From: Escherichia phage KIT06
Sequence record: OQ349392.1
DNA length: 64,000 bases
Direction: 5' to 3' (one strand)
A program made the translations under genes and the position numbers. The notes under the pieces are model-generated. The model saw nothing but the letters and a program-made list of their open reading frames with translations. It had not been told where the DNA came from and ran no database searches. This document shows, one piece after another, positions 501 through 62,031 of the stretch. Positions within the stretch are counted from its first letter, which is position 1; every line of letters begins with the position of its first letter.

Positions 501-529
501 TTTACACGCTGATGAGGTAGTGATACTAT
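501..529 (+). promoter_or_regulatory. T4-type early promoter (-35 TTTACA, 17-bp spacer, -10 TACTAT, TG-extended)
   Basis: GTTGTTTACA...TGATACTAT with A/T-rich TTTCACAAAG upstream element; precedes ipI. Confidence 0.7.
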
Positions 530-559
530 TATCTCATCAAAATTAATTAGGAAAATAAA

Positions 560-847
560 ATGAAAACTTTCAAAGAATTTACTTCTACAACTATCCCGGT
601 TTCTACTATTACTGAAGCTACTCTTACTTCTGAAGTTATTAAAGCAAATAAAGGACGAGAAGGTAAACCAATGATTAGTTTGGTTGATGGCGAAGAAATC
701 AAAGGTACTGTTTACCTAGGTGATGGGTGGTCTGCTAAAAAGGATGGTGCTACAATCATTATCTCTCCTGCTGAAGAAACTGCGTTGTTTAAAGCTAAAC
801 ACATTTCTGCGGCACATCTCAAGATTATTGCTAAAAATCTTTTGTAA
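560..847 (+). CDS. ipI: internal protein I (capsid-targeted; anti-type-IV-restriction IPI in T4)
   Basis: 95 aa; N-terminal MKTFKEF capsid-targeting-like sequence with I-T-E site at residue 19; C-terminus ...HISAAHLKIIAKNLL as recalled for T4 IPI. Confidence 0.6.
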   Translation: MKTFKEFTSTTIPVSTITEATLTSEVIKANKGREGKPMISLVDGEEIKGTVYLGDGWSAKKDGATIIISPAEETALFKAKHISAAHLKIIAKNLL

Positions 848-866
848 TAAATATTTCACAAAGTTG

Positions 867-895
867 TTTACATAGGGTTTTAGTTGTGATACTAT
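867..895 (+). promoter_or_regulatory. T4-type early promoter
   Basis: TTTACA-N17-TACTAT with upstream TTTCACAAAG element. Confidence 0.7.
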
Positions 896-923
896 TACCC
901 TATCAACTACTGAGGAGAATAAA

Positions 924-1196
924 ATGAAAACATTTAAAGAATTTATCAATGAAGCTACTTTTAACGAAAAAGTAAAAATTAGCAAAGCTGTCAAGACTAT
1001 GATTGATAACATCAATTACCTATATGGTATTGATTTAACTGACTATGTAACAGTTGGTAACAAACGTAACTATTTCGTGTTTGACATCTCTGAACTTGAC
1101 CAGAATCAAATTAACAACATTGAGCGTTTTGCTAATGATAAGGGTCTTCGTCATGAGTCAGCGGGTTATAAAAAATACGCAATTTATTTAAAATGA
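924..1196 (+). CDS. capsid-targeted internal-protein-like protein (CTS MKTFKEFINE)
   Basis: 90 aa; N-terminal 10 residues match the T4 internal-protein capsid-targeting sequence with I-x-E site; own early promoter and GAGGAGAATAAAATG leader. Confidence 0.55.
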   Translation: MKTFKEFINEATFNEKVKISKAVKTMIDNINYLYGIDLTDYVTVGNKRNYFVFDISELDQNQINNIERFANDKGLRHESAGYKKYAIYLK

Positions 1197-1197
1197 G

Positions 1198-1226
1198 TTT
1201 ACTTTTAAATAGGGTTGTGGTACTAT
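1198..1226 (+). promoter_or_regulatory. T4-type early promoter
   Basis: TTTACT-N17-TACTAT, TG-extended. Confidence 0.65.
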
Positions 1227-1256
1227 TACCTTATCAAAATTAATTAGGAAAATAAA

Positions 1257-1565
1257 ATGAAAACTTACCAAGAATTTATCAATGAAGCGGCTGCACCAAA
1301 GACATTCATTATTTATACTCAAGCGGGTCTTGATGATGAGTATGCGGAAGCAATTCTGAGGTCACTTGCTAAGAACGGCGTTGAAGTAATCGCCTCGGAC
1401 TTTAAGAAAGGGGCTTCCGAGCTGTTTATTTCTATAACTAAAGGATCTAAAGCTAAAATCAAATCATCATTCGGAGTTGCTCGTACCGATCAAATCGACA
1501 ATCATGACTTTAAACAAACTGGTGCTAAACGGCAGAACACAATTGCATCACGCGGAATAAAATAG
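1257..1565 (+). CDS. capsid-targeted internal-protein-like protein (CTS MKTYQEFINE)
   Basis: 102 aa; CTS-type N-terminus; preceded by AGGAAAATAAAATG leader identical to the one before ipI. Confidence 0.55.
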   Translation: MKTYQEFINEAAAPKTFIIYTQAGLDDEYAEAILRSLAKNGVEVIASDFKKGASELFISITKGSKAKIKSSFGVARTDQIDNHDFKQTGAKRQNTIASRGIK

Positions 1566-1576
1566 TTTATAAACCG

Positions 1577-1605
1577 TTTACTTTTAGATAGGGTAGTGAT
1601 ATTAT
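1577..1605 (+). promoter_or_regulatory. T4-type early promoter
   Basis: TTTACT-N17-TATTAT. Confidence 0.65.
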
Positions 1606-1633
1606 TACCCTATCAACTACTGAGGAGAATAAA

Positions 1634-1857
1634 ATGAAAACTTATCAAAAATTTATCGCTGAAGCTAAAAGACATGAAGATGAACTACCAATTGTTACGA
1701 AAACTTTTGATGGTACATTAAGTGATTTTAAAAAATTCCTAGCGATAAACTTTCTAAGTTAACTGGCTCTATTAGTGAAAAGGATGGTAAAGTCACGTTT
1801 TCTGCTCGTGGCACTGCTAATCTTAAAAAGCTTTTGAAAGCTGCTGGAGCGGAATAA
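1634..1857 (+). pseudogene. frameshifted CTS-type internal-protein gene
   Basis: ATG 1634 opens MKTYQKFIAEA... which stops at 1760-1762; the -1 frame continues from the A-run at 1730-1735 to a stop at 1855-1857 (…KLSKLTGSISEKDGKVTFSARGTANLKKLLKAAGAE). Confidence 0.5.
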
Positions 1858-1861
1858 GTTG

Positions 1862-1890
1862 TTTACTTCTGGGTAGTAGTGTGATACTAT
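1862..1890 (+). promoter_or_regulatory. T4-type early promoter
   Basis: TTTACT-N17-TACTAT followed by the conserved leader. Confidence 0.7.
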
Positions 1891-9185: not shown

Positions 9186-9503
9186 ATGAAAACGTTTAAA
9201 GAATTTATTGCAGAATCTGCCCAAGGACAACGTGTAGAAGGCGGTTATATCTGGATTGAACAAGTTGAGCCGCCAAGTCGCACTTCTACAGGTAAATGGA
9301 AAATTACTGTTGATGGTCCTGGTGGTAAACGTAGGACTCTTAAAGAAATTAATGGGTACTATGAAGAAGCTCTTTCGGATGCAGGAACTTACATGATGCA
9401 AATCATGATTAAAAACCCTGAAAACCGTTTTGCAGCTAGAGTTTTCCGACGCATCGGTAATAAACTTTATGACGCATACTCTAAAAACTTCCCTAAAGAA
9501 TAA
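9186..9503 (+). CDS. ipII: internal protein II
   Basis: 105 aa with CTS MKTFKEFIAE. Confidence 0.8.
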   Translation: MKTFKEFIAESAQGQRVEGGYIWIEQVEPPSRTSTGKWKITVDGPGGKRRTLKEINGYYEEALSDAGTYMMQIMIKNPENRFAARVFRRIGNKLYDAYSKNFPKE

Positions 9504-16915: not shown

Positions 16916-16944
16916 TTTACAAGTTGGCAAGGTTATGGTATAGT
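16916..16944 (+). promoter_or_regulatory. T4-type early promoter
   Basis: TTTACA-N17-TATAGT. Confidence 0.65.
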
Positions 16945-52632: not shown

Positions 52633-54060
52633 GTGGTAGAAATTATTCTTTCTCATCTCATATTTGATCAAGCTTATTTTTCAAAAGTTTGGCCATATAT
52701 GGATTCAGAATATTTTGAAAGTGGTCCGGCTAAAAATACGTTCAAATTAATTAAATCTCATGTTAATGAGTATCATAGCGTTCCATCCATTAATGCGTTA
52801 AATGTTGCATTAGAAAATAGTTCATTTACTGAAACAGAATATTCTGGTGTAAAAACACTTATTTCAAAACTAGCCGATTCTCCGGAAGACCACAGCTGGT
52901 TAGTAAAAGAAACAGAAAAATATGTTCAGCAAAGGGCAATGTTTAATGCCACGTCTAAAATAATTGAAATTCAAACTAATGCTGAGCTTCCTCCGGAAAA
53001 ACGAAATAAGAAAATGCCAGATGTAGGTGCTATTCCTGACATCATGCGCCAAGCATTATCAATTTCATTTGATAGTTACGTTGGTCATGATTGGATGGAT
53101 GACTACGAAGCACGTTGGCTATCTTATATGAATAAAGCTCGTAAGGTTCCATTTAAACTCAAAATTCTAAATAAAATTACTAAAGGCGGAGCTGAGACTG
53201 GAACACTGAACGTTTTAATGGCTGGTGTTAACGTTGGTAAGTCATTAGGTCTGTGTTCATTGGCAGCAGATTATTTACAGCTTGGACATAATGTTCTTTA
53301 CATTTCCATGGAAATGGCAGAAGAAGTCTGTGCTAAGCGTATTGACGCTAATATGCTTGATGTTTCTCTTGATGACATTGATGATGGGCATATTTCTTAC
53401 GCTGAGTATAAAGGAAAAATGGAAAAATGGCGTGAGAAATCTACTCTCGGTCGTTTAATCGTTAAACAGTATCCTACTGGTGGAGCAGACGCTAATACAT
53501 TTCGATCGCTTTTAAACGAATTAAAGCTCAAGAAGAATTTTGTTCCAACAATCATTATTGTTGACTATCTAGGTATTTGTAAATCTTGCCGCATCAGAGT
53601 TTACTCAGAAAATAGTTACACAACTGTTAAAGCTATCGCAGAGGAATTGCGTGCTCTGGCTGTTGAAACCGAAACTGTTCTTTGGACTGCAGCACAGGTT
53701 GGTAAGCAAGCTTGGGATTCTTCTGATGTTAACATGAGCGATATTGCAGAATCTGCCGGTCTTCCAGCAACAGCCGATTTTATGCTTGCGGTCATTGAAA
53801 CCGAGGAGTTAGCAGCTGCTGAACAACAACTCATTAAGCAAATCAAATCACGATATGGTGATAAGAATAAATGGAATAAGTTTTTGATGGGTGTTCAAAA
53901 AGGAAATCAGAAATGGGTAGAAATTGAACAAGATTCTACTCCAACTGAAGTGAACGAAGTAGCAGGTTCACAGCAGATTCAGGCTGAGCAGAATCGCTAT
54001 CAAAGAAACGAATCTACTCGAGCCCAGTTAGATGCTTTGGCAAATGAATTAAAATTTTAG
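52633..54060 (+). CDS. 41: replicative DNA helicase gp41
   Basis: 475 aa, GTG start after AAGGAG; Walker A GVNVGKS. Confidence 0.95.
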   Translation: MVEIILSHLIFDQAYFSKVWPYMDSEYFESGPAKNTFKLIKSHVNEYHSVPSINALNVALENSSFTETEYSGVKTLISKLADSPEDHSWLVKETEKYVQQRAMFNATSKIIEIQTNAELPPEKRNKKMPDVGAIPDIMRQALSISFDSYVGHDWMDDYEARWLSYMNKARKVPFKLKILNKITKGGAETGTLNVLMAGVNVGKSLGLCSLAADYLQLGHNVLYISMEMAEEVCAKRIDANMLDVSLDDIDDGHISYAEYKGKMEKWREKSTLGRLIVKQYPTGGADANTFRSLLNELKLKKNFVPTIIIVDYLGICKSCRIRVYSENSYTTVKAIAEELRALAVETETVLWTAAQVGKQAWDSSDVNMSDIAESAGLPATADFMLAVIETEELAAAEQQLIKQIKSRYGDKNKWNKFLMGVQKGNQKWVEIEQDSTPTEVNEVAGSQQIQAEQNRYQRNESTRAQLDALANELKF

Positions 54061-54089
54061 TTTACAAGCTGACAGGACTATGGTATAGT
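54061..54089 (+). promoter_or_regulatory. T4-type early promoter
   Basis: TTTACA-N17-TATAGT abutting gene 41 stop. Confidence 0.65.
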
Positions 54090-54118
54090 AGTCTTGTTGG
54101 TTAAATGAGGAGATTGTT

Positions 54119-54301
54119 ATGGAATTGGTAAAGGTAGTTTTTATGGGGTGGTTTAAGAATGAAAGCATGTTTACTAAAGAAATCACAATGATGAAAGACG
54201 ACGTTCAATGGGCTACTACTCAATATGCTGAAGTTAATAAAGCATTAGTTAAAGCTTTCATTGATGACAAGAAAGTATGCGAAGTGGATTGCCGAGGGTA
54301 A
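54119..54301 (+). CDS. dmd: Dmd, inhibitor of host RnlA/LsoA RNase toxins (T4 61.5)
   Basis: 60 aa MELVKVVFMGWFKNESMFTKEITMMKDDVQWATTQYAEVNKALVKAFIDDKKVCEVDCRG; first gene after 41 as in T4. Confidence 0.8.
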   Translation: MELVKVVFMGWFKNESMFTKEITMMKDDVQWATTQYAEVNKALVKAFIDDKKVCEVDCRG

Positions 54302-54302
54302 T

Positions 54303-54545
54303 ATGCATATCGTTTTATTTAAACCTACTCCGTATAATGTCAGGAAAAATACTCAATTCAAAGCACTTATTGCAGATACGTGGGAATTGGTGTTAGATAT
54401 TCCAGCAGAAGAAAGTCCTCCATTTGGTCGAGTGGAATTTATTAAGTTTGCTGTGCGCCCTACGAAGCGGCAGATTCGCCAATGCAAAAGATACTTTCGT
54501 AAAATCGTCAAGTTAAAGAAACAGTTATTGATGCTAGTAAAATAG
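54303..54545 (+). CDS. hypothetical small basic protein
   Basis: ATG 54303 after GAGGGTAAT. Confidence 0.45.
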   Translation: MHIVLFKPTPYNVRKNTQFKALIADTWELVLDIPAEESPPFGRVEFIKFAVRPTKRQIRQCKRYFRKIVKLKKQLLMLVK

Positions 54546-54548
54546 TAG

Positions 54549-54577
54549 TTTACAAGCTGATAGAGTTGTGTTATAGT
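54549..54577 (+). promoter_or_regulatory. T4-type early promoter
   Basis: TTTACA-N17-TATAGT. Confidence 0.65.
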
Positions 54578-54608
54578 AATTCTATCAGCTAATCGCGGAG
54601 AAAAGAAA

Positions 54609-54863
54609 ATGATGCTAGTTAATAGAGAATATCAGTTTAAATCAGAAGAAGATTTGGAAAAATTCGCAAGTGGTTGTGAACTGAATAGACGCACAGCTAA
54701 AGTCATAGGATTAAAACCCTTTACAGTTCTAGATTGTGAAGTTTCTAAATTCCGCAGAGGGTGTTCTATTAGCGGTCATGCTCTGGTTGATGGGAACACA
54801 TTTTTCTTTGTTTTTAGCGTCAGAGAACTTTTATTGATTAACGAACTTGAGGAAATAAAATAG
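54609..54863 (+). CDS. hypothetical small protein
   Basis: 84 aa after GCGGAGAAAAGAAAATG. Confidence 0.5.
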   Translation: MMLVNREYQFKSEEDLEKFASGCELNRRTAKVIGLKPFTVLDCEVSKFRRGCSISGHALVDGNTFFFVFSVRELLLINELEEIK

Positions 54864-54892
54864 TTTACTTTTGTTAGAAATTGAGATACTAT
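54864..54892 (+). promoter_or_regulatory. T4-type early promoter
   Basis: TTTACT-N17-TACTAT. Confidence 0.65.
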
Positions 54893-54921
54893 TATAAACA
54901 TAAACTACTGAGGAGATTATC

Positions 54922-55215
54922 ATGAAAAAATTTGTTTTTGCTGCAATTTTTGCTTTGGCTTCTTGTGCTGCTCAGCCTGCTATGGCGGGTTATGATAAAG
55001 ATTTGTGCGAATGGTCTATGACTGCAGATCAGACTGAGGTTGAAACTCAGATTGAAGCAGATATTATGAATATCGTTGAGCGTGATCGCCCTGAAATGAA
55101 AGCTGAAGTACAAAAACAGCTTAAGTCTGGTGGTGTAATGCAGTATAATTACGTTCTGTATTGTGATAAAAACTTCAATAATAAAAATATCATCGCTGAA
55201 GTAGTAGGTGAATAA
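54922..55215 (+). CDS. sp: Spackle periplasmic protein (superinfection exclusion)
   Basis: 97 aa with signal peptide MKKFVFAAIFALASCAAQPAMA... Confidence 0.85.
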   Translation: MKKFVFAAIFALASCAAQPAMAGYDKDLCEWSMTADQTEVETQIEADIMNIVERDRPEMKAEVQKQLKSGGVMQYNYVLYCDKNFNNKNIIAEVVGE

Positions 55216-55841
55216 TGCTCTATCAAATGCACAAGTGTAAAGACACGTACAATTATAAAGGTGCCCAGTGTTATATCATCAATCGTGAAAACGTGGGTCC
55301 AGGTCATTCGCATCAATCACGGTTTGTATTCGTTAAAAATAATGAAATTATAGCAGTTGCTAATTACATGCTTGTGACTAATGATGTTAATCCGGTGCCT
55401 TTTACGTATTATAATCTAATGGATTTGGCGTACGATTATAATTGGTTTAATCATGATAATTTGGCTCATATTGAAGGCGTAGGATTTGACATCTCTTATT
55501 CTAGTTACTCGTTGTGTCCTATGAGCCGAGCTCATAAAGAGCCTGAATATTTTTCATTTCGTCGGCGTGTAGACTTTGAACGCAGCACAGAGTATATCGG
55601 TGGAATTTTTGTTAAAGATAATCGAATTACTCGCATTATTTATCCTTTGGGCTGTGGTCAAAAAGATATTGATGTTGATTTAGACTTTACTGAAAACATC
55701 ATTAATCATATTGCTTCTGTGTATTTTGATATTGATCATAAAATTGTAATATGTGGATATGAATTACCATCAGAAAAACAGTCTAAAGTGAATGTTTCTA
55801 TTGATGACCAAATTTTTAATGCTTTTATGAATAGAGGTTAA
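55215..55841 (+). CDS. hypothetical protein in the T4 61.2 position (AdfA-like anti-DarT candidate by synteny)
   Basis: 208-aa ORF between sp and primase; assignment is positional only. Confidence 0.4.
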   Translation: MLYQMHKCKDTYNYKGAQCYIINRENVGPGHSHQSRFVFVKNNEIIAVANYMLVTNDVNPVPFTYYNLMDLAYDYNWFNHDNLAHIEGVGFDISYSSYSLCPMSRAHKEPEYFSFRRRVDFERSTEYIGGIFVKDNRITRIIYPLGCGQKDIDVDLDFTENIINHIASVYFDIDHKIVICGYELPSEKQSKVNVSIDDQIFNAFMNRG

Positions 55842-55842
55842 T

Positions 55843-56007
55843 ATGAAAACGTTTAAAGAATTTATCAAAGAAGATATGGTCGCTGGAGATTCAGGTGGTA
55901 ATCCTGAAAATATCTCTACTGGAACAACGTCAGGCGCTGTAGTAAATAAAGGTCCTGAACAGATTCCTAAAAAGAAAAAAGAGGAATCTAAAGAAAAAGA
56001 AGAGTAA
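55843..56007 (+). CDS. small CTS-bearing protein (54 aa)
   Basis: Not in the track; MKTFKEFIKE N-terminus identical in type to internal-protein CTS; Lys/Glu-rich tail. Confidence 0.4.
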   Translation: MKTFKEFIKEDMVAGDSGGNPENISTGTTSGAVVNKGPEQIPKKKKEESKEKEE

Positions 56008-56009
56008 AA

Positions 56010-57038
56010 ATGTCATCAATACCTTGGATTGATAATGAGTTTGCATACCGTGCGCTAGCTCATTTACCTAAATTCACACAAGTAAATAATAGTTCAACTT
56101 TTAAATTACGGTTTAGATGCCCTGTTTGTGGAGATTCAAAAACCGACCAAAATAAAGCCCGTGGATGGTATTATGGTGATAATAATGAAGGAAATATTCA
56201 TTGTTATAACTGTAACTATCATGCACCAATCGGAATATATTTAAAGGAGTTTGAACCTGATTTATATCGTGAGTATATCTTTGAAATAAGAAAAGAAAAA
56301 GGTAAAAGTCGTCCAGTAGAAAAACCTAAAGAACTTCCTAAACAACCTGAGAAGAAAATAATTAAATCTCTTCCGTCATGTATTAGATTAGATAAACTGG
56401 CGGAAGACCATCCAATTATAAAATACGTAAAAGCTCGCTGTATTCCAAAGGATAAATGGAAATATCTTTGGTTTACAACCGAATGGCCTAAATTAGTTAA
56501 TAGTATAGCACCAGGAACATACAAAAAGGAAATACCTGAGCCCCGTCTTGTTATTCCAATTTATAATGCTAATGGAAAAGCTGAGTCTTTTCAAGGACGT
56601 GCATTAAAGAAAGATGCTCCCCAAAAATATATCACAATCAAAGCTTATCCTGAGGCAACAAAAATCTATGGAGTCGAACGAGTCAAAGATGGTGATGTAT
56701 ATGTTCTAGAAGGACCTATAGATTCACTTTTTATTGAAAACGGTATAGCTATTACGGGTGGTCAATTAGACCTAGAAATTGTTCCATTTAAAGATAGACG
56801 TGTATGGGTTTTAGATAATGAACCTCGTCACCCTGACACTATTAAACGAATGACTAAATTAGTTGATGCAGGAGAAAGGGTTATGTTTTGGGACAAATCT
56901 CCCTGGAAATCAAAAGATGTTAATGATATGATTAGAAAGGAAGGTGCAACCCCTGAACAAATTATGGAATATATGAAAAATAATATTGCACAGGGGTTGA
57001 TGGCTAAAATGCGGCTATCTAAATATGCTAAGATTTAA
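56010..57038 (+). CDS. 61: DNA primase gp61
   Basis: 342 aa with zinc-binding CPVCGDS...CYNCNYH and TOPRIM-like core. Confidence 0.93.
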   Translation: MSSIPWIDNEFAYRALAHLPKFTQVNNSSTFKLRFRCPVCGDSKTDQNKARGWYYGDNNEGNIHCYNCNYHAPIGIYLKEFEPDLYREYIFEIRKEKGKSRPVEKPKELPKQPEKKIIKSLPSCIRLDKLAEDHPIIKYVKARCIPKDKWKYLWFTTEWPKLVNSIAPGTYKKEIPEPRLVIPIYNANGKAESFQGRALKKDAPQKYITIKAYPEATKIYGVERVKDGDVYVLEGPIDSLFIENGIAITGGQLDLEIVPFKDRRVWVLDNEPRHPDTIKRMTKLVDAGERVMFWDKSPWKSKDVNDMIRKEGATPEQIMEYMKNNIAQGLMAKMRLSKYAKI

Positions 57039-57235
57039 ATTAACCCAACTAAAGCAAATGCTAAATCTACGAATGTATCAAGAGTAATTACTGGAATACT
57101 AACGCCATGAGCAATAGCAACTGGCGATAAAACAAAATTCCAAAGTAAAATTCCTATCATAGCAGAAATAGTAAAAGCTATACGTTTTTTATTACCTTTG
57201 ATGGCATTAACAAGTGCCATTAATTTTTGTACCAT
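57035..57235 (-). CDS. small membrane protein on the opposite strand
   Basis: 66 aa, two hydrophobic helices; strong minus-strand AAGGAGG 5 nt before ATG. Confidence 0.55.
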   Translation of the reverse strand: MVQKLMALVNAIKGNKKRIAFTISAMIGILLWNFVLSPVAIAHGVSIPVITLDTFVDLAFALVGLI

Positions 57236-57248
57236 ATGTCCTCCTTAT

Positions 57249-57272
57249 TGCTTTATATATTTATTGTATAAT
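57249..57272 (+). promoter_or_regulatory. MotA-dependent middle promoter
   Basis: MotA box TTGCTTTA, 11-bp spacer, -10 TATAAT; upstream of gene 56. Confidence 0.55.
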
Positions 57273-57308
57273 TAATCTACTAACCCATGAATTGAAAGGA
57301 AAAATAAC

Positions 57309-57827
57309 ATGCCACATTTTAACGAATGTAGTCATCTGATCGAAGGCGCTGATAAAGCTCAAAATGAATACTGGGATATTCTCGGTGATGAAAAAGACCC
57401 GCTGCAGGTTATGCTTGATATGCAGAAATCTTTGCAGGTTCGTTTAGCTAAAGATAAACCTGAATATAACCGTCATCCTGATGATTTGGCTACTGCTGGT
57501 GAAGTTGTTGATTGGCTGCGTAATCAGAAAGATTATATTGATGATGAATTCCGCGAACTTCTGACTTCTCTTGGCGGTATGAGCAATGGCGAAAAAGATG
57601 CATCTGCTGTATGGAAACCTTGGAAGTCACAGCACGGTGAACGCCGTGAAACTCTAATTACTGATTTGTCTCCACAAGACCAGTTAGAAATTAAATTCGA
57701 AATGATTGATATTCTTCATTTCGTTCTGAATATGTTCCAAGGTCTCGGTCTTACGGCTGAAGAAATCTTTAAACTTTATTATCTGAAAAATGCTGAAAAC
57801 TTCGCTCGTCAAGATCGAGGTTATTAA
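57309..57827 (+). CDS. 56: dCTP pyrophosphatase gp56
   Basis: 172 aa M(P)HFNEC(S)HLIEG...NEYWDILGDEKDPLQVMLDMQ...LYYLKNAENFARQDRGY. Confidence 0.92.
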   Translation: MPHFNECSHLIEGADKAQNEYWDILGDEKDPLQVMLDMQKSLQVRLAKDKPEYNRHPDDLATAGEVVDWLRNQKDYIDDEFRELLTSLGGMSNGEKDASAVWKPWKSQHGERRETLITDLSPQDQLEIKFEMIDILHFVLNMFQGLGLTAEEIFKLYYLKNAENFARQDRGY

Positions 57828-62002: not shown

Positions 62003-62031
62003 TTTACAAGCTGAAGTAAAAATGTTATAGT
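62003..62031 (+). promoter_or_regulatory. T4-type early promoter
   Basis: TTTACA-N17-TATAGT. Confidence 0.65.

What the first reader, a model, noticed from the sequence alone, without database searches (positions are those of the whole stretch)
54061..56007. Promoter-dense island of small genes downstream of gene 41
Within 2 kb there are three strong early promoters and six small genes: Dmd (60 aa), two unknowns (80 and 84 aa), Spackle, a 208-aa protein in the 61.2 position, and a 54-aa CTS-bearing peptide. In T4 this neighbourhood holds known counter-defence and exclusion functions, so the unknowns here are good candidates for further inhibitors of host toxins or defence systems.
Basis: partly seen in the sequence, partly recalled or inferred. 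Interest (0 to 1): 0.6.

Follow-up and report, generated by a model that had tools for sequence, protein, structure and literature searches.

The report
Known T4 anti-toxin gene island
This stretch is the already described counter-defence ("anti-toxin") gene island of T4-like phages; four of its six small genes have known jobs, and only an extra 84-residue GoF-like gene and the 54-residue gp61.1 remain open.

Summary
Window 54061-56007 carries six small + strand genes and three T4-type early promoters. The window is a Tequatrovirus, 98.5% identical to phage G4498.

The content is mostly known:
- Dmd is 100% identical to T4 Dmd.
- The "80-aa unknown" is TifA (T4 gp61.4), a proven inhibitor of the ToxN toxin.
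- Spackle is present.
- The "208-aa protein" is AdfA (gp61.2), the anti-DarT factor.
- Srikant et al. 2022 already called this region an "anti-TA island" and named its other genes as antitoxin candidates.

What is left:
1. The 84-aa gene is absent from T4. It is a promoter-bounded cassette present in about 70 of 539 related records. It encodes a stand-alone copy of the N-terminal SH3/LSm-like barrel of T4 GoF. It is under strong purifying selection, and its function is unknown.
2. gp61.1 has a capsid-targeting-like N-terminus. The rest copies residues 57-93 of the major capsid protein gp23, including gp23's maturation cleavage site.

Verdict: a real feature, already known in kind, of low to moderate interest.

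The parts
54050..54113 (+). PeSL-type early promoter P1. It holds the gene 41 stop codon in an A/T-rich stretch, -35 GTTTACA at 54060-54066, TGn, -10 TATAGT at 54084-54089, and a 15-bp hairpin at 54067-54102 across the spacer and -10. The Shine-Dalgarno GAGGAG follows. The predicted start is about 54096.
   Evidence: motif. (hairpin -19.9 kcal/mol, z -4.2, 0 of 200 shuffles as good). (near-identical in T4). PMC9391042 states that dmd-tifA is driven by an early T4 promoter.
54119..54301 (+). dmd, 60 aa: antitoxin against the RnlA and LsoA RNases.
   Evidence: Pfam PF17587 E=1.6e-46. 100% identical to T4 Dmd.
54303..54545 (+). tifA (T4 61.4), 80 aa: ToxN inhibitor and RNA-binding protein. The last residues read KKQLLMLVK, against T4's EKQFVTCDYAEILK.
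   Evidence: 96% identity over 76 aa to T4 gp61.4. Pfam DUF7279 E=1.8e-20. R52, P53, T54, K55, R56 and R59 are retained (read from the sequence against PMC10853763). The start is 1 nt after the dmd stop.
54538..54601 (+). PeSL-type early promoter P2, a 64-nt paralogue of P1 (72% identical). -35 GTTTACA at 54548-54554, -10 TATAGT at 54572-54577, hairpin 54555-54590, Shine-Dalgarno GGAG. The predicted start is about 54584.
   Evidence: repeat D1, inverted repeat I19. (-18.0 kcal/mol, z -3.9)..
54609..54863 (+). orf84: a stand-alone GoF-N-terminal-domain-like protein with a predicted SH3/LSm-like small barrel. It is an accessory gene absent from T4.
54864..54892 (+). Early-type promoter P3 (GTTTACT-17-TACTAT), upstream of sp. 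It has no TGn and no hairpin. The predicted start is about 54899.
   Evidence: motif. (no structure, z +0.7). Conserved in T4.
54922..55215 (+). sp (Spackle), 97 aa: periplasmic inhibitor of the gp5 tail lysozyme, acting in superinfection exclusion. The signal peptide ends ...PAMA|G.
   Evidence: Pfam PF25676 E=4.8e-45. 96.9% identical to T4 Sp.
55215..55841 (+). adfA (T4 61.2), 208 aa: anti-DarT factor A. Its start overlaps the sp stop (TAATG).
   Evidence: Pfam PF23813 AdfA E=5e-134. 95.7% identical to T4 gp61.2. Annotated as adfA in phage P8.
55817..55851 (+). MotA-dependent middle promoter P61: MotA box aaTGCTTTta, -10 TAATAT at 55839-55844, start about 55851, inside codon 3 of 61.1.
   Evidence: The T4 start site 19122 in Table 1 of PMC2988021, mapped through the collinear T4 alignment. 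The sequence was read.
55843..56007 (+). 61.1, 54 aa. It has a CTS-like N-terminus MKTFKEFIKE, then a module that copies gp23 residues 66-93, then a Lys/Glu-rich tail.
   Evidence: 98% identical to T4 gp61.1. CTS motif shared with ORFs at 924, 1257, 9186 and 9530. 46% identical to gp23 residues 57-93, E=1e-9. gp23 is the only PDB sequence hit.
56010..57038 (+). Gene 61 (primase). It marks the downstream boundary of the island and is the last gene of the sp-adfA-61.1-61 run.
   Evidence: 98.5% identical to T4 gp61.

Best explanation
This is the hyperplastic 'anti-TA island' that lies between the helicase gene 41 and the primase gene 61 in T-even phages.

It is read as three early transcription units:
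- P1 drives dmd-tifA.
- P2 drives orf84.
- P3 drives sp-adfA-61.1(-61). The middle promoter P61 feeds gene 61 from inside 61.1.

Shown by others for T4 proteins that are 96-100% identical:
- Dmd binds and blocks the RnlA and LsoA RNases.
- TifA binds ToxN and RNA.
- AdfA appears to block the DarT ADP-ribosyltransferase by interacting with the toxin (PMC11257639).
- Spackle blocks the tail lysozyme of superinfecting phages in the periplasm.

Shown here:
- orf84 is an extra promoter-plus-gene cassette.
- Its edges are the repeated AAAATAG..GTTTAC (-35) sequence, as expected for gain or loss by recombination between PeSL promoters.
- It encodes only the N-terminal SH3/LSm-like barrel of the GoF/MotB.1/Frd.2 family.

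Inferred, not shown: orf84 is most likely an RNA- or RNase-directed accessory factor. I put about 0.3 on it being a counter-defence inhibitor and about 0.3 on it being a general modulator of phage mRNA. The P1 and P2 hairpins lie upstream of their own start sites, so they can form only in read-through RNA from upstream. They probably attenuate or end such RNA.
For: Identity of the region:
- 98.5% DNA identity to Tequatrovirus G4498 and 539 matching phage records.
- Collinear with T4. Protein identities to T4 are 96-100%.
- Pfam matches to Dmd, DUF7279, T4_Spackle and AdfA.
- Literature: tifA, adfA.

The orf84 cassette:
- T4 lacks it. GEP001 and Shfl2 have it, and GEP001 carries a further 59-aa cassette bounded by GTTTACTTTTGTT repeats.
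- orf84 is present in 70 close records plus 13 at 57% identity.
- It always lies between gene 41 and sp, in three different gene orders: the window, SP18 and L011.
- Phages G28 and JoYop carry both a true goF and orf84.

PeSL anatomy: compared with PMC2839356.

GoF homology and fold.

Real gene: pN/pS 0.125/0.735.

Motif statistics.
Against: - No experiment exists for orf84 or gp61.1.
- Wild-type GoF and MotB.1 had little effect in the only functional assay of the family (PMC12152347). 'RNA-directed' therefore rests on the fold and on one gain-of-function mutant.
- The hairpins have no T-run and were not called as intrinsic terminators. Their terminator role is carried over from RB49/phi1.
- P3 is a weak consensus match, and none of the three start sites was mapped in this phage.
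Confidence: 0.85

Rival explanations
1. orf84 is not a counter-defence gene. It is a phage-internal modulator of mRNA fate: a spare copy of the GoF barrel that tunes the stability or processing of early and middle phage transcripts, such as the gene 41 region. On this view its place in the island only reflects where PeSL cassettes can land.
For: - The GoF(D25Y) mutant stabilises RNA carrying the gene 41 5' region (PMC12152347).
- orf84-like genes sit directly after, or one gene after, gene 41 in SP18 and L011.
- PeSL cassettes insert wherever promoter repeats exist.
Against: - Wild-type GoF and MotB.1 showed little effect in the reporter assay.
- orf84 is patchy, in about 13% of related records. 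That pattern fits a host-specific accessory role better than a housekeeping one.
- It co-localises in three lineages with dmd and/or tifA, both of which are anti-RNase genes.
Confidence: 0.3
2. orf84 and gp61.1 are passengers with no present function for the phage. On this view they are ORFans carried along by promoter-mediated shuffling.
For: orf84 shows presence/absence polymorphism, with clean cassette boundaries at promoter repeats. T4 grows without orf84.
Against: - orf84 is under strong purifying selection (pN 0.125 against pS 0.735).
- It is conserved at 55-57% identity, with the same length, in another genus.
- The gp61.1 module is found in 1438 phage records across Escherichia, Klebsiella, Aeromonas, Acinetobacter and Vibrio phages.
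Confidence: 0.08
3. The 54-aa gp61.1 is a packaged internal peptide. Its CTS-like N-terminus would take it into the prohead. The gp21 protease would cut after Glu10, and the 44-residue remainder would be injected with the DNA, like the internal proteins.
For: - Its N-terminal decapeptide matches the MKT[YF]xEFIxE start of four other ORFs in the window, including the IPII- and IPIII-like ones. It is 9 of 10 identical to two of them.
- I-K-E|D fits the gp21 site, and it aligns exactly with gp23's L-T-E65|A66 site.
Against: - In RB43, CC31, PMBT1 and PS2 the same module sits at the C-terminal end of a 154-177 aa protein with no MKT start. Targeting is therefore not the conserved feature.
- The middle promoter P61 starts inside the gene, so the protein can come only from early transcripts.
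- No report of gp61.1 in heads was found.
Confidence: 0.3

Closest known systems
T4 'anti-TA island': dmd - tifA(61.4) - sp - adfA(61.2) - 61.1 (Srikant, Guegler & Laub 2022, eLife, PMC9391042)
   Same: Same position between genes 41 and 61. Same order and strand. Same P1 promoter and dmd-tifA operon. Proteins 96-100% identical.
   Different: An extra promoter-plus-orf84 cassette lies between tifA and sp. TifA is 80 aa rather than 85, with a different C-terminal tail.
GoF / MotB.1 / Frd.2 family of 'LSm-like fold' early proteins of Tevenvirinae (Kim et al. 2025, PMC12152347)
   Same: orf84 aligns with the GoF N-terminal domain over almost its whole length at ~30% identity. Its model matches T4 MotB.1 and SH3-like barrels, including FeoA, KOW and Mind-bomb repeats. 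It is an early gene with its own sigma-70 promoter.
   Different: It has one domain only, with no acidic linker and no C-terminal domain. C23, C43, C52 and H57 are conserved in the orf84 subfamily but absent from GoF. It lies in the 41-61 island rather than next to gene 39. It occurs in addition to a true goF in the same genomes.
PeSL (promoter-early stem-loop) mobile regulatory cassettes of RB49/phi1 and other T4-like phages (Arbiol et al. 2010, PMC2839356; Comeau et al. 2014, PMC4122927)
   Same: P1 and P2 show, in order, an upstream stop codon in an A/T-rich stretch, a -35, a stem-loop over the spacer and -10, a Shine-Dalgarno and an ATG. They flank small accessory ORFs. The indels between related phages end at the repeated promoter sequence.
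   Different: The stems are not the GGGG...CCCC type. No T-run follows them. P3 has no stem. Terminator activity and mini-circle formation were not tested here.
T4 internal proteins with capsid targeting sequence (IPI, IPII, IPIII; Mullaney & Black 1996, as reviewed in PMC9026906)
   Same: gp61.1 starts MKTFKEFIKE, the same decapeptide pattern with a Glu at position 10.
   Different: The rest of gp61.1 resembles gp23 residues 66-93, not any internal protein. Orthologues outside Tequatrovirus lack the targeting sequence. Packaging is unproven.

Membership tests
Dmd (Pfam PF17587) | Full-length match to the 60-aa Dmd profile above the curated cut-off | tested here: met
   156.9 bits against a cut-off of 27. 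100% identical to T4 Dmd.
Dmd (Pfam PF17587) | Neutralises the RnlA and LsoA toxins | not testable with these tools
   Carried over from T4 Dmd, which has the same sequence.
TifA / DUF7279 | Match to Pfam PF23945 and high identity to T4 gp61.4 | tested here: met
   73 bits against a cut-off of 24.5. 96% identity over 76 aa.
TifA / DUF7279 | Pro-Thr helix cap followed by the basic residues R52, K55, R56 and R59, which were mutated in PMC10853763 | tested here: met
   The sequence reads ...AVR52-P-T-K55-R56-QI-R59... (paper).
TifA / DUF7279 | Adjacent to and co-transcribed with dmd | tested here: met
   The ATG is 1 nt after the dmd stop, and there is no promoter motif between them.
TifA / DUF7279 | Inhibits ToxN | not testable with these tools
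   The altered C-terminal tail (9 residues in place of T4's 14, 80 aa against 85) has not been assayed. RB69 TifA, which also lacks the T4-type C-terminal extension, is active.
Spackle (Pfam PF25676) | Full-length profile match and an N-terminal signal peptide | tested here: met
   152.5 bits against a cut-off of 27. MKKFVFAAIFALASCAAQPAMA|G was read from the sequence; no signal-peptide predictor was run.
AdfA (Pfam PF23813) | Full-length profile match | tested here: met
   444.7 bits against a cut-off of 27, covering residues 1-208. 95.7% identical to T4 gp61.2.
AdfA (Pfam PF23813) | Neutralises a DarT toxin | not testable with these tools
   Activity depends on the allele in T4 and RB69 (PMC11257639).
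GoF/MotB.1/Frd.2 LSm-like fold family | Sequence homology to the N-terminal domain of a family member | tested here: met
   E=2e-8 to T4 GoF. phrog_2980 E=3e-20. 29-31% identity over 93% of orf84 to many GoF homologues.
GoF/MotB.1/Frd.2 LSm-like fold family | Bent five-stranded antiparallel beta-sheet (SH3/LSm-like barrel) | tested here: inconclusive
GoF/MotB.1/Frd.2 LSm-like fold family | Two-domain build: N-terminal barrel, flexible linker, C-terminal domain | tested here: not met
   orf84 ends at the end of the barrel, at residue 84. GoF continues for about 50 more residues.
GoF/MotB.1/Frd.2 LSm-like fold family | Binds RNA or alters RNA stability | not testable with these tools
   Shown only for the GoF(D25Y) mutant. 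The equivalent orf84 residue is G22.
PeSL regulatory cassette | Early sigma-70 promoter with an A/T-rich upstream stretch that holds the upstream stop codon, followed by a Shine-Dalgarno and an ATG | tested here: met
   True of P1, P2 and P3.
PeSL regulatory cassette | Stable stem-loop within or overlapping the promoter | tested here: met
   P1: -19.9 kcal/mol, z -4.2. P2: -18.0 kcal/mol, z -3.9. Not met for P3 (z +0.7).
PeSL regulatory cassette | Insertions and deletions between related phages bounded by the motif | tested here: met
   The alignment of T4, the window, Shfl2 and GEP001 shows it.
PeSL regulatory cassette | Promoter and terminator activity; mini-circle formation | not testable with these tools
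   No T-run follows the stems, and the terminator scan does not call them.
CTS-bearing internal head proteins | N-terminal decapeptide of the type MKTYQEFIAE, ending in a gp21 site (I/L-x-E) | tested here: met
   MKTFKEFIKE is 9 of 10 identical to the ORFs at 924 and 9186.
CTS-bearing internal head proteins | Packaged in the head and cleaved by gp21 | not testable with these tools
   No report was found.

The most novel reading that the evidence does not exclude
The two uncharacterised genes are working parts of the island.

- orf84 would be the first member of the GoF LSm-like family with a natural role, protecting phage RNA from a host RNase toxin or directly blocking such a toxin.
- gp61.1 would be a mimic of the maturation-site and N-arm segment of the major capsid protein gp23. 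It could act as a decoy for a host sensor of gp23, or as a regulator of the prohead protease or of gp23 folding.

The gp61.1 module tracks its own phage's gp23 slightly better than other phages' gp23. Only 2 of 120 pairings do as well across five phages, with no sign of gene conversion.
Probability: 0.15. Interest if true: 0.6.

Novelty: already known. Interest (0 to 1): 0.28.

Why it matters
The island itself adds nothing new. It is the T-even anti-toxin island, with Dmd, TifA, Spackle and AdfA almost unchanged from T4.

Its practical value is as a short, well-defined candidate list for counter-defence screens. It offers one accessory gene (orf84) that T4 lacks and that comes as a ready-made promoter-plus-gene cassette. 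It also offers one very widely conserved mini-gene (61.1) with an odd resemblance to the major capsid protein.

If orf84 had an antitoxin role, it would give the GoF/MotB.1/Frd.2 family its first natural function.

Tried and rejected
- **orf84 as T4 61.4.** Rejected. There is no similarity (E=12); the 80-aa ORF is 61.4.
- **Single-sequence structure of orf84.** Useless (pLDDT 52), so it was redone with an alignment.
- **Exhaustive HMMER search with orf84.** Only 3 representatives were found. One is a eukaryote-type C2H2 zinc-finger protein, which I take as spurious. One is a five-repeat metagenomic protein on a 1.3-kb contig with no context.
- **Other libraries.** NCBIfam gave no hit for any of the six proteins. 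PDB sequences gave none for the GoF-family profile.
- **Generic sigma-70 scan.** Not above shuffles, so it was replaced by the T4-specific motif.
- **Zinc site in orf84 (C23, C43, C52, H57).** In the model's strand register C52 and H57 lie five residues apart on one strand. No coordinates were available to test this further, so it is left open.
- **Recent gene conversion between 61.1 and gene 23.** Third-base identity at shared residues is only 33-47%, so it is not supported.
- **Long gp61.1 N-terminal domain related to AdfA or the ORF33c-like protein.** No similarity, and no Pfam match.
- **T4 GenBank records.** They carry no promoter features.
- **Miller et al. 2003 T4 genome review.** Not held in the library.
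- **Possible link between gp61.1 and the Gol peptide of gp23.** The residue numbers of Gol could not be verified, so no claim is made.
Full report
**What the window is.** The 2.1 kb around the finding is 98.5% identical to Escherichia phage vB_EcoM_G4498 and matches 539 phage records, almost all Tequatrovirus. It is collinear with T4 positions ~20.6-18.9 kb, read on the T4 minus strand. The flanking genes are uvsX, 40 and 41 upstream and the primase gene 61 downstream.

**Checking the observation.** All six small + strand ORFs exist at the stated sizes. The 80-aa ORF starts at the ATG at 54303, one base after the dmd stop. The ORF listing shows its TTG-extended form, and relatives annotate the ATG.

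Two promoters, P1 at 54061-54089 and P2 at 54549-54577, are TTTACA-17-TATAGT with TGn. The third, P3 at 54864-54892, is GTTTACT-17-TACTAT with no TGn, and it falls below the generic scan's threshold.

The generic sigma-70 scan is no better than chance: 40 sites against 42.4 in shuffles. The T4-type motif GTTTAC-N16-18-TAnnnT is far above chance. It occurs 25 times on the + strand and once on the - strand, against 1.4 in dinucleotide shuffles. Three such sites in 2 kb is in the top ~6% of 2-kb windows. It is not the densest cluster, since 501-1890 holds five.

The mapped T4 middle promoter P61 starts at T4 19122 (Table 1 of PMC2988021). That corresponds to window ~55851. A MotA box TGCTTT lies at 55820-55825 and a -10 TAATAT at 55839-55844 (sequence).

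**What the genes are.**
- Dmd is 100% identical to T4 Dmd.
- The 80-aa 'unknown' is T4 gp61.4. It shows 96% identity over 76 residues and matches Pfam DUF7279.
  - Srikant et al. renamed that gene tifA and showed that it encodes a protein inhibitor of the ToxN toxin (PMC9391042).
  - Guegler et al. showed that TifA binds ToxN and RNA through a Pro-Thr-capped basic helix (PMC10853763).
  - The residues they mutated (R52, K55, R56, R59) and the PT cap are all present here.
  - Only the tail differs: KKQLLMLVK here against EKQFVTCDYAEILK in T4.
- Spackle is 96.9% identical to T4 Sp.
- The 208-aa protein matches Pfam AdfA at E=5e-134 and is 95.7% identical to T4 gp61.2. AdfA is the anti-DarT factor.
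- The 54-aa protein is T4 gp61.1 (98% identity).

The stop and start codons abut or overlap for dmd/tifA and for sp/adfA/61.1/61. The region therefore reads as three early transcription units.

Two of its 'unknowns' are solved.

**The 84-aa gene.** It has no counterpart in T4.

*The cassette.* An alignment of T4, the window, Shfl2 and GEP001 shows a clean cassette made of the P2 promoter plus orf84. It is bounded on both sides by the repeated AAAATAG..GTTTAC sequence, that is, the A/T-rich stretch plus the -35 box. GEP001 carries one more 59-aa cassette, inserted inside P3 and bounded by GTTTACTTTTGTT repeats.

*The promoters.* P1 and P2 are 64-nt paralogues, 72% identical. Each holds a 14-15 bp hairpin across the spacer and the -10, with z-scores of -4.2 and -3.9. 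Seven other early promoters in the window have similar hairpins. This is the anatomy of the PeSL cassettes described for RB49/phi1, in which stem-loops most often lie between the -35 and -10 or overlap the -10 (PMC2839356). The hairpins lie upstream of the predicted start sites. They can therefore form only in RNA read through from upstream. Their attenuator role is inferred from RB49/phi1, not shown here, and no T-run follows them.

*Distribution.* orf84 is in 70 close records and 13 more at 57% identity, out of 539 records with this locus. It always lies between gene 41 and sp, but the gene order differs:
- dmd-tifA-orf84-sp in the window;
- 41-orf84-x-x-dmd-sp in SP18;
- 41-(253-aa ORFan)-orf84-tifA-sp in a metagenomic contig.

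*Is it a real gene?* Against a 78%-identical homologue, pN is 0.125 and pS is 0.735. This is strong purifying selection.

*What it encodes.*
- orf84 matches phrog_2980, labelled goF.
- It aligns with T4 GoF residues 7-47 at 37% identity, E=2e-8.
- Many GoF homologues align over 93% of its length at ~30% identity.
- GoF is 141 aa. orf84 corresponds only to its N-terminal domain.
- Kim et al. [quoted passage not shown] Its function is unknown. Only the GoF(D25Y) mutant stabilises RNA (PMC12152347).
- My alignment-based model has pLDDT 70.
- It matches T4 MotB.1 in BFVD with prob 1.0 and TM 0.60.

orf84 is therefore a single-domain member of that superfamily. It fails the family's two-domain build. 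Phages G28 and JoYop carry it in addition to a true goF.

*What it probably does.* I consider an RNA- or RNase-directed role most likely. The grounds are the fold, the GoF(D25Y) result, and its steady company with the anti-RNase genes dmd and tifA. This is inference. I give about 0.3 to counter-defence and about 0.3 to a phage-internal mRNA role.

**gp61.1.**

*The CTS-like N-terminus.* Its N-terminus MKTFKEFIKE matches four other ORFs in the window that begin MKT[YF]xEFIxE. These include the IPII-like and IPIII-like ORFs at 9186 and 9530. The 'CTS-bearing' label therefore holds at motif level.

*The copy of gp23.*
- Residues 2-38 align with T4 gp23 residues 57-93 at 46% identity, E=1e-9.
- gp23 is the only hit in all PDB sequences (E=0.004).
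- The alignment places I-K-E10|D11 of gp61.1 on the L-T-E65|A66 maturation cleavage site of gp23.
- In RB43, CC31, PMBT1 and PS2, gp61.1 is 154-177 aa. There the gp23-like module is at the C-terminal end, followed by a basic tail, and there is no MKT start.
- The T4-type protein is therefore the bare module behind a targeting-like peptide.

*Co-variation with gp23.*
- Over 35 aligned residues, cognate 61.1/gp23 pairs share slightly more identities than non-cognate pairs (17.4 against 16.45).
- Only 2 of 120 permutations of the pairing reach the observed total.
- There are lineage-specific matched residues in CC31, PMBT1, PS2 and RB43.
- Third-base identity at shared residues is only 33-47%, so recent gene conversion is not the cause.
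- With five phages and no correction for shared ancestry, this is a hint only.

*Context.* The module is in 1438 phage records. I found no paper on gp61.1. The middle promoter P61 starts inside the gene, so the protein can be made only from early transcripts.

**Verdict.** It is the known T-even anti-TA island, so the novelty class is 'already known'. The residual interest lies in orf84 and gp61.1, which are good but unproven candidates.

Noticed in passing
window 55843-56007; compared with L010 (T4 gene 23), L014/L015 (RB43), L016/L019 (CC31), L017/L022 (PMBT1), L018/L021 (PS2): gp61.1 copies gp23 residues 57-93, including the maturation cleavage site (E=1e-9). Outside Tequatrovirus the module is the C-terminal end of a 154-177 aa protein. 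Cognate 61.1/gp23 pairs match slightly better than non-cognate ones (only 2 of 120 permutations do as well), with no sign of gene conversion.
   Followed up: partly
window 55817-55851: The mapped T4 middle promoter P61 (T4 start 19122) lies at the adfA/61.1 junction and starts inside codon 3 of 61.1. Middle transcripts for the primase therefore cannot encode gp61.1.
   Followed up: partly
window 57035-57827: The dam methyltransferase gene that follows gene 61 in T4 is absent from the whole window. In its place is a 66-aa hydrophobic ORF on the minus strand (57035-57235). The next gene, 56 (dCTPase), is only 74% identical to T4, while gene 61 is 98.5% identical.
   Followed up: partly
window 501-1890: This is the densest promoter cluster of the window: five T4-type early promoters, four of them with strong hairpins. 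Among them are two small ORFs with capsid-targeting-like N-termini (924-1196 and 1257-1565). It looks like a polymorphic internal-protein locus.
   Followed up: no
window 16916-16944 and 62003-62031: Two more promoters share the GTTTACAAG(C/T)TG...TG(G/T)TATAGTA subtype of P1 and P2. The one at 16916 has a -19 kcal/mol hairpin very like P1's.
   Followed up: no
L005 2143-2499 (Shfl2) and L006 2456-2812 (GEP001): Some relatives carry a 118-aa gene (RB51 ORF33c-like, phrog_4122) between adfA and 61.1. [quoted passage not shown]
   Followed up: partly
L006 1180-1500 (GEP001): A further 59-aa cassette (phrog_37915, unknown function) is inserted inside the sp promoter. It is bounded by direct GTTTACTTTTGTT repeats.
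   Followed up: partly
window 54609-54863 (orf84 residues 23, 43, 52, 57): C23, C43, C52 and H57 are invariant in all six orf84-type proteins, down to 55% identity, but absent from GoF. A metal site or disulfides could not be tested.
   Followed up: no
L012 (JGI metagenome 3300010974, 1.3-kb contig), protein P0007: A 395-aa protein is made of five tandem ~80-residue repeats that resemble orf84 residues 34-80 (GC...GN..FVFRVRDL). It has weak Pfam hints to the Mind-bomb SH3 repeat and KOW. Its origin is unknown.
   Followed up: partly
L011 2679-3440: In a Logan contig, a 253-aa ORF with no Pfam or PHROG match sits between gene 41 and the orf84 homologue, where dmd lies in T4.
   Followed up: no
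L001 1765-2025 and 3343-3507 (phage P8 record PV390659.2): There are annotation errors in public records. tifA is labelled 'DNA polymerase' with a wrong start, and 61.1 is labelled 'major capsid domain-containing protein'. The second label probably reflects the gp23-like module.
   Followed up: no
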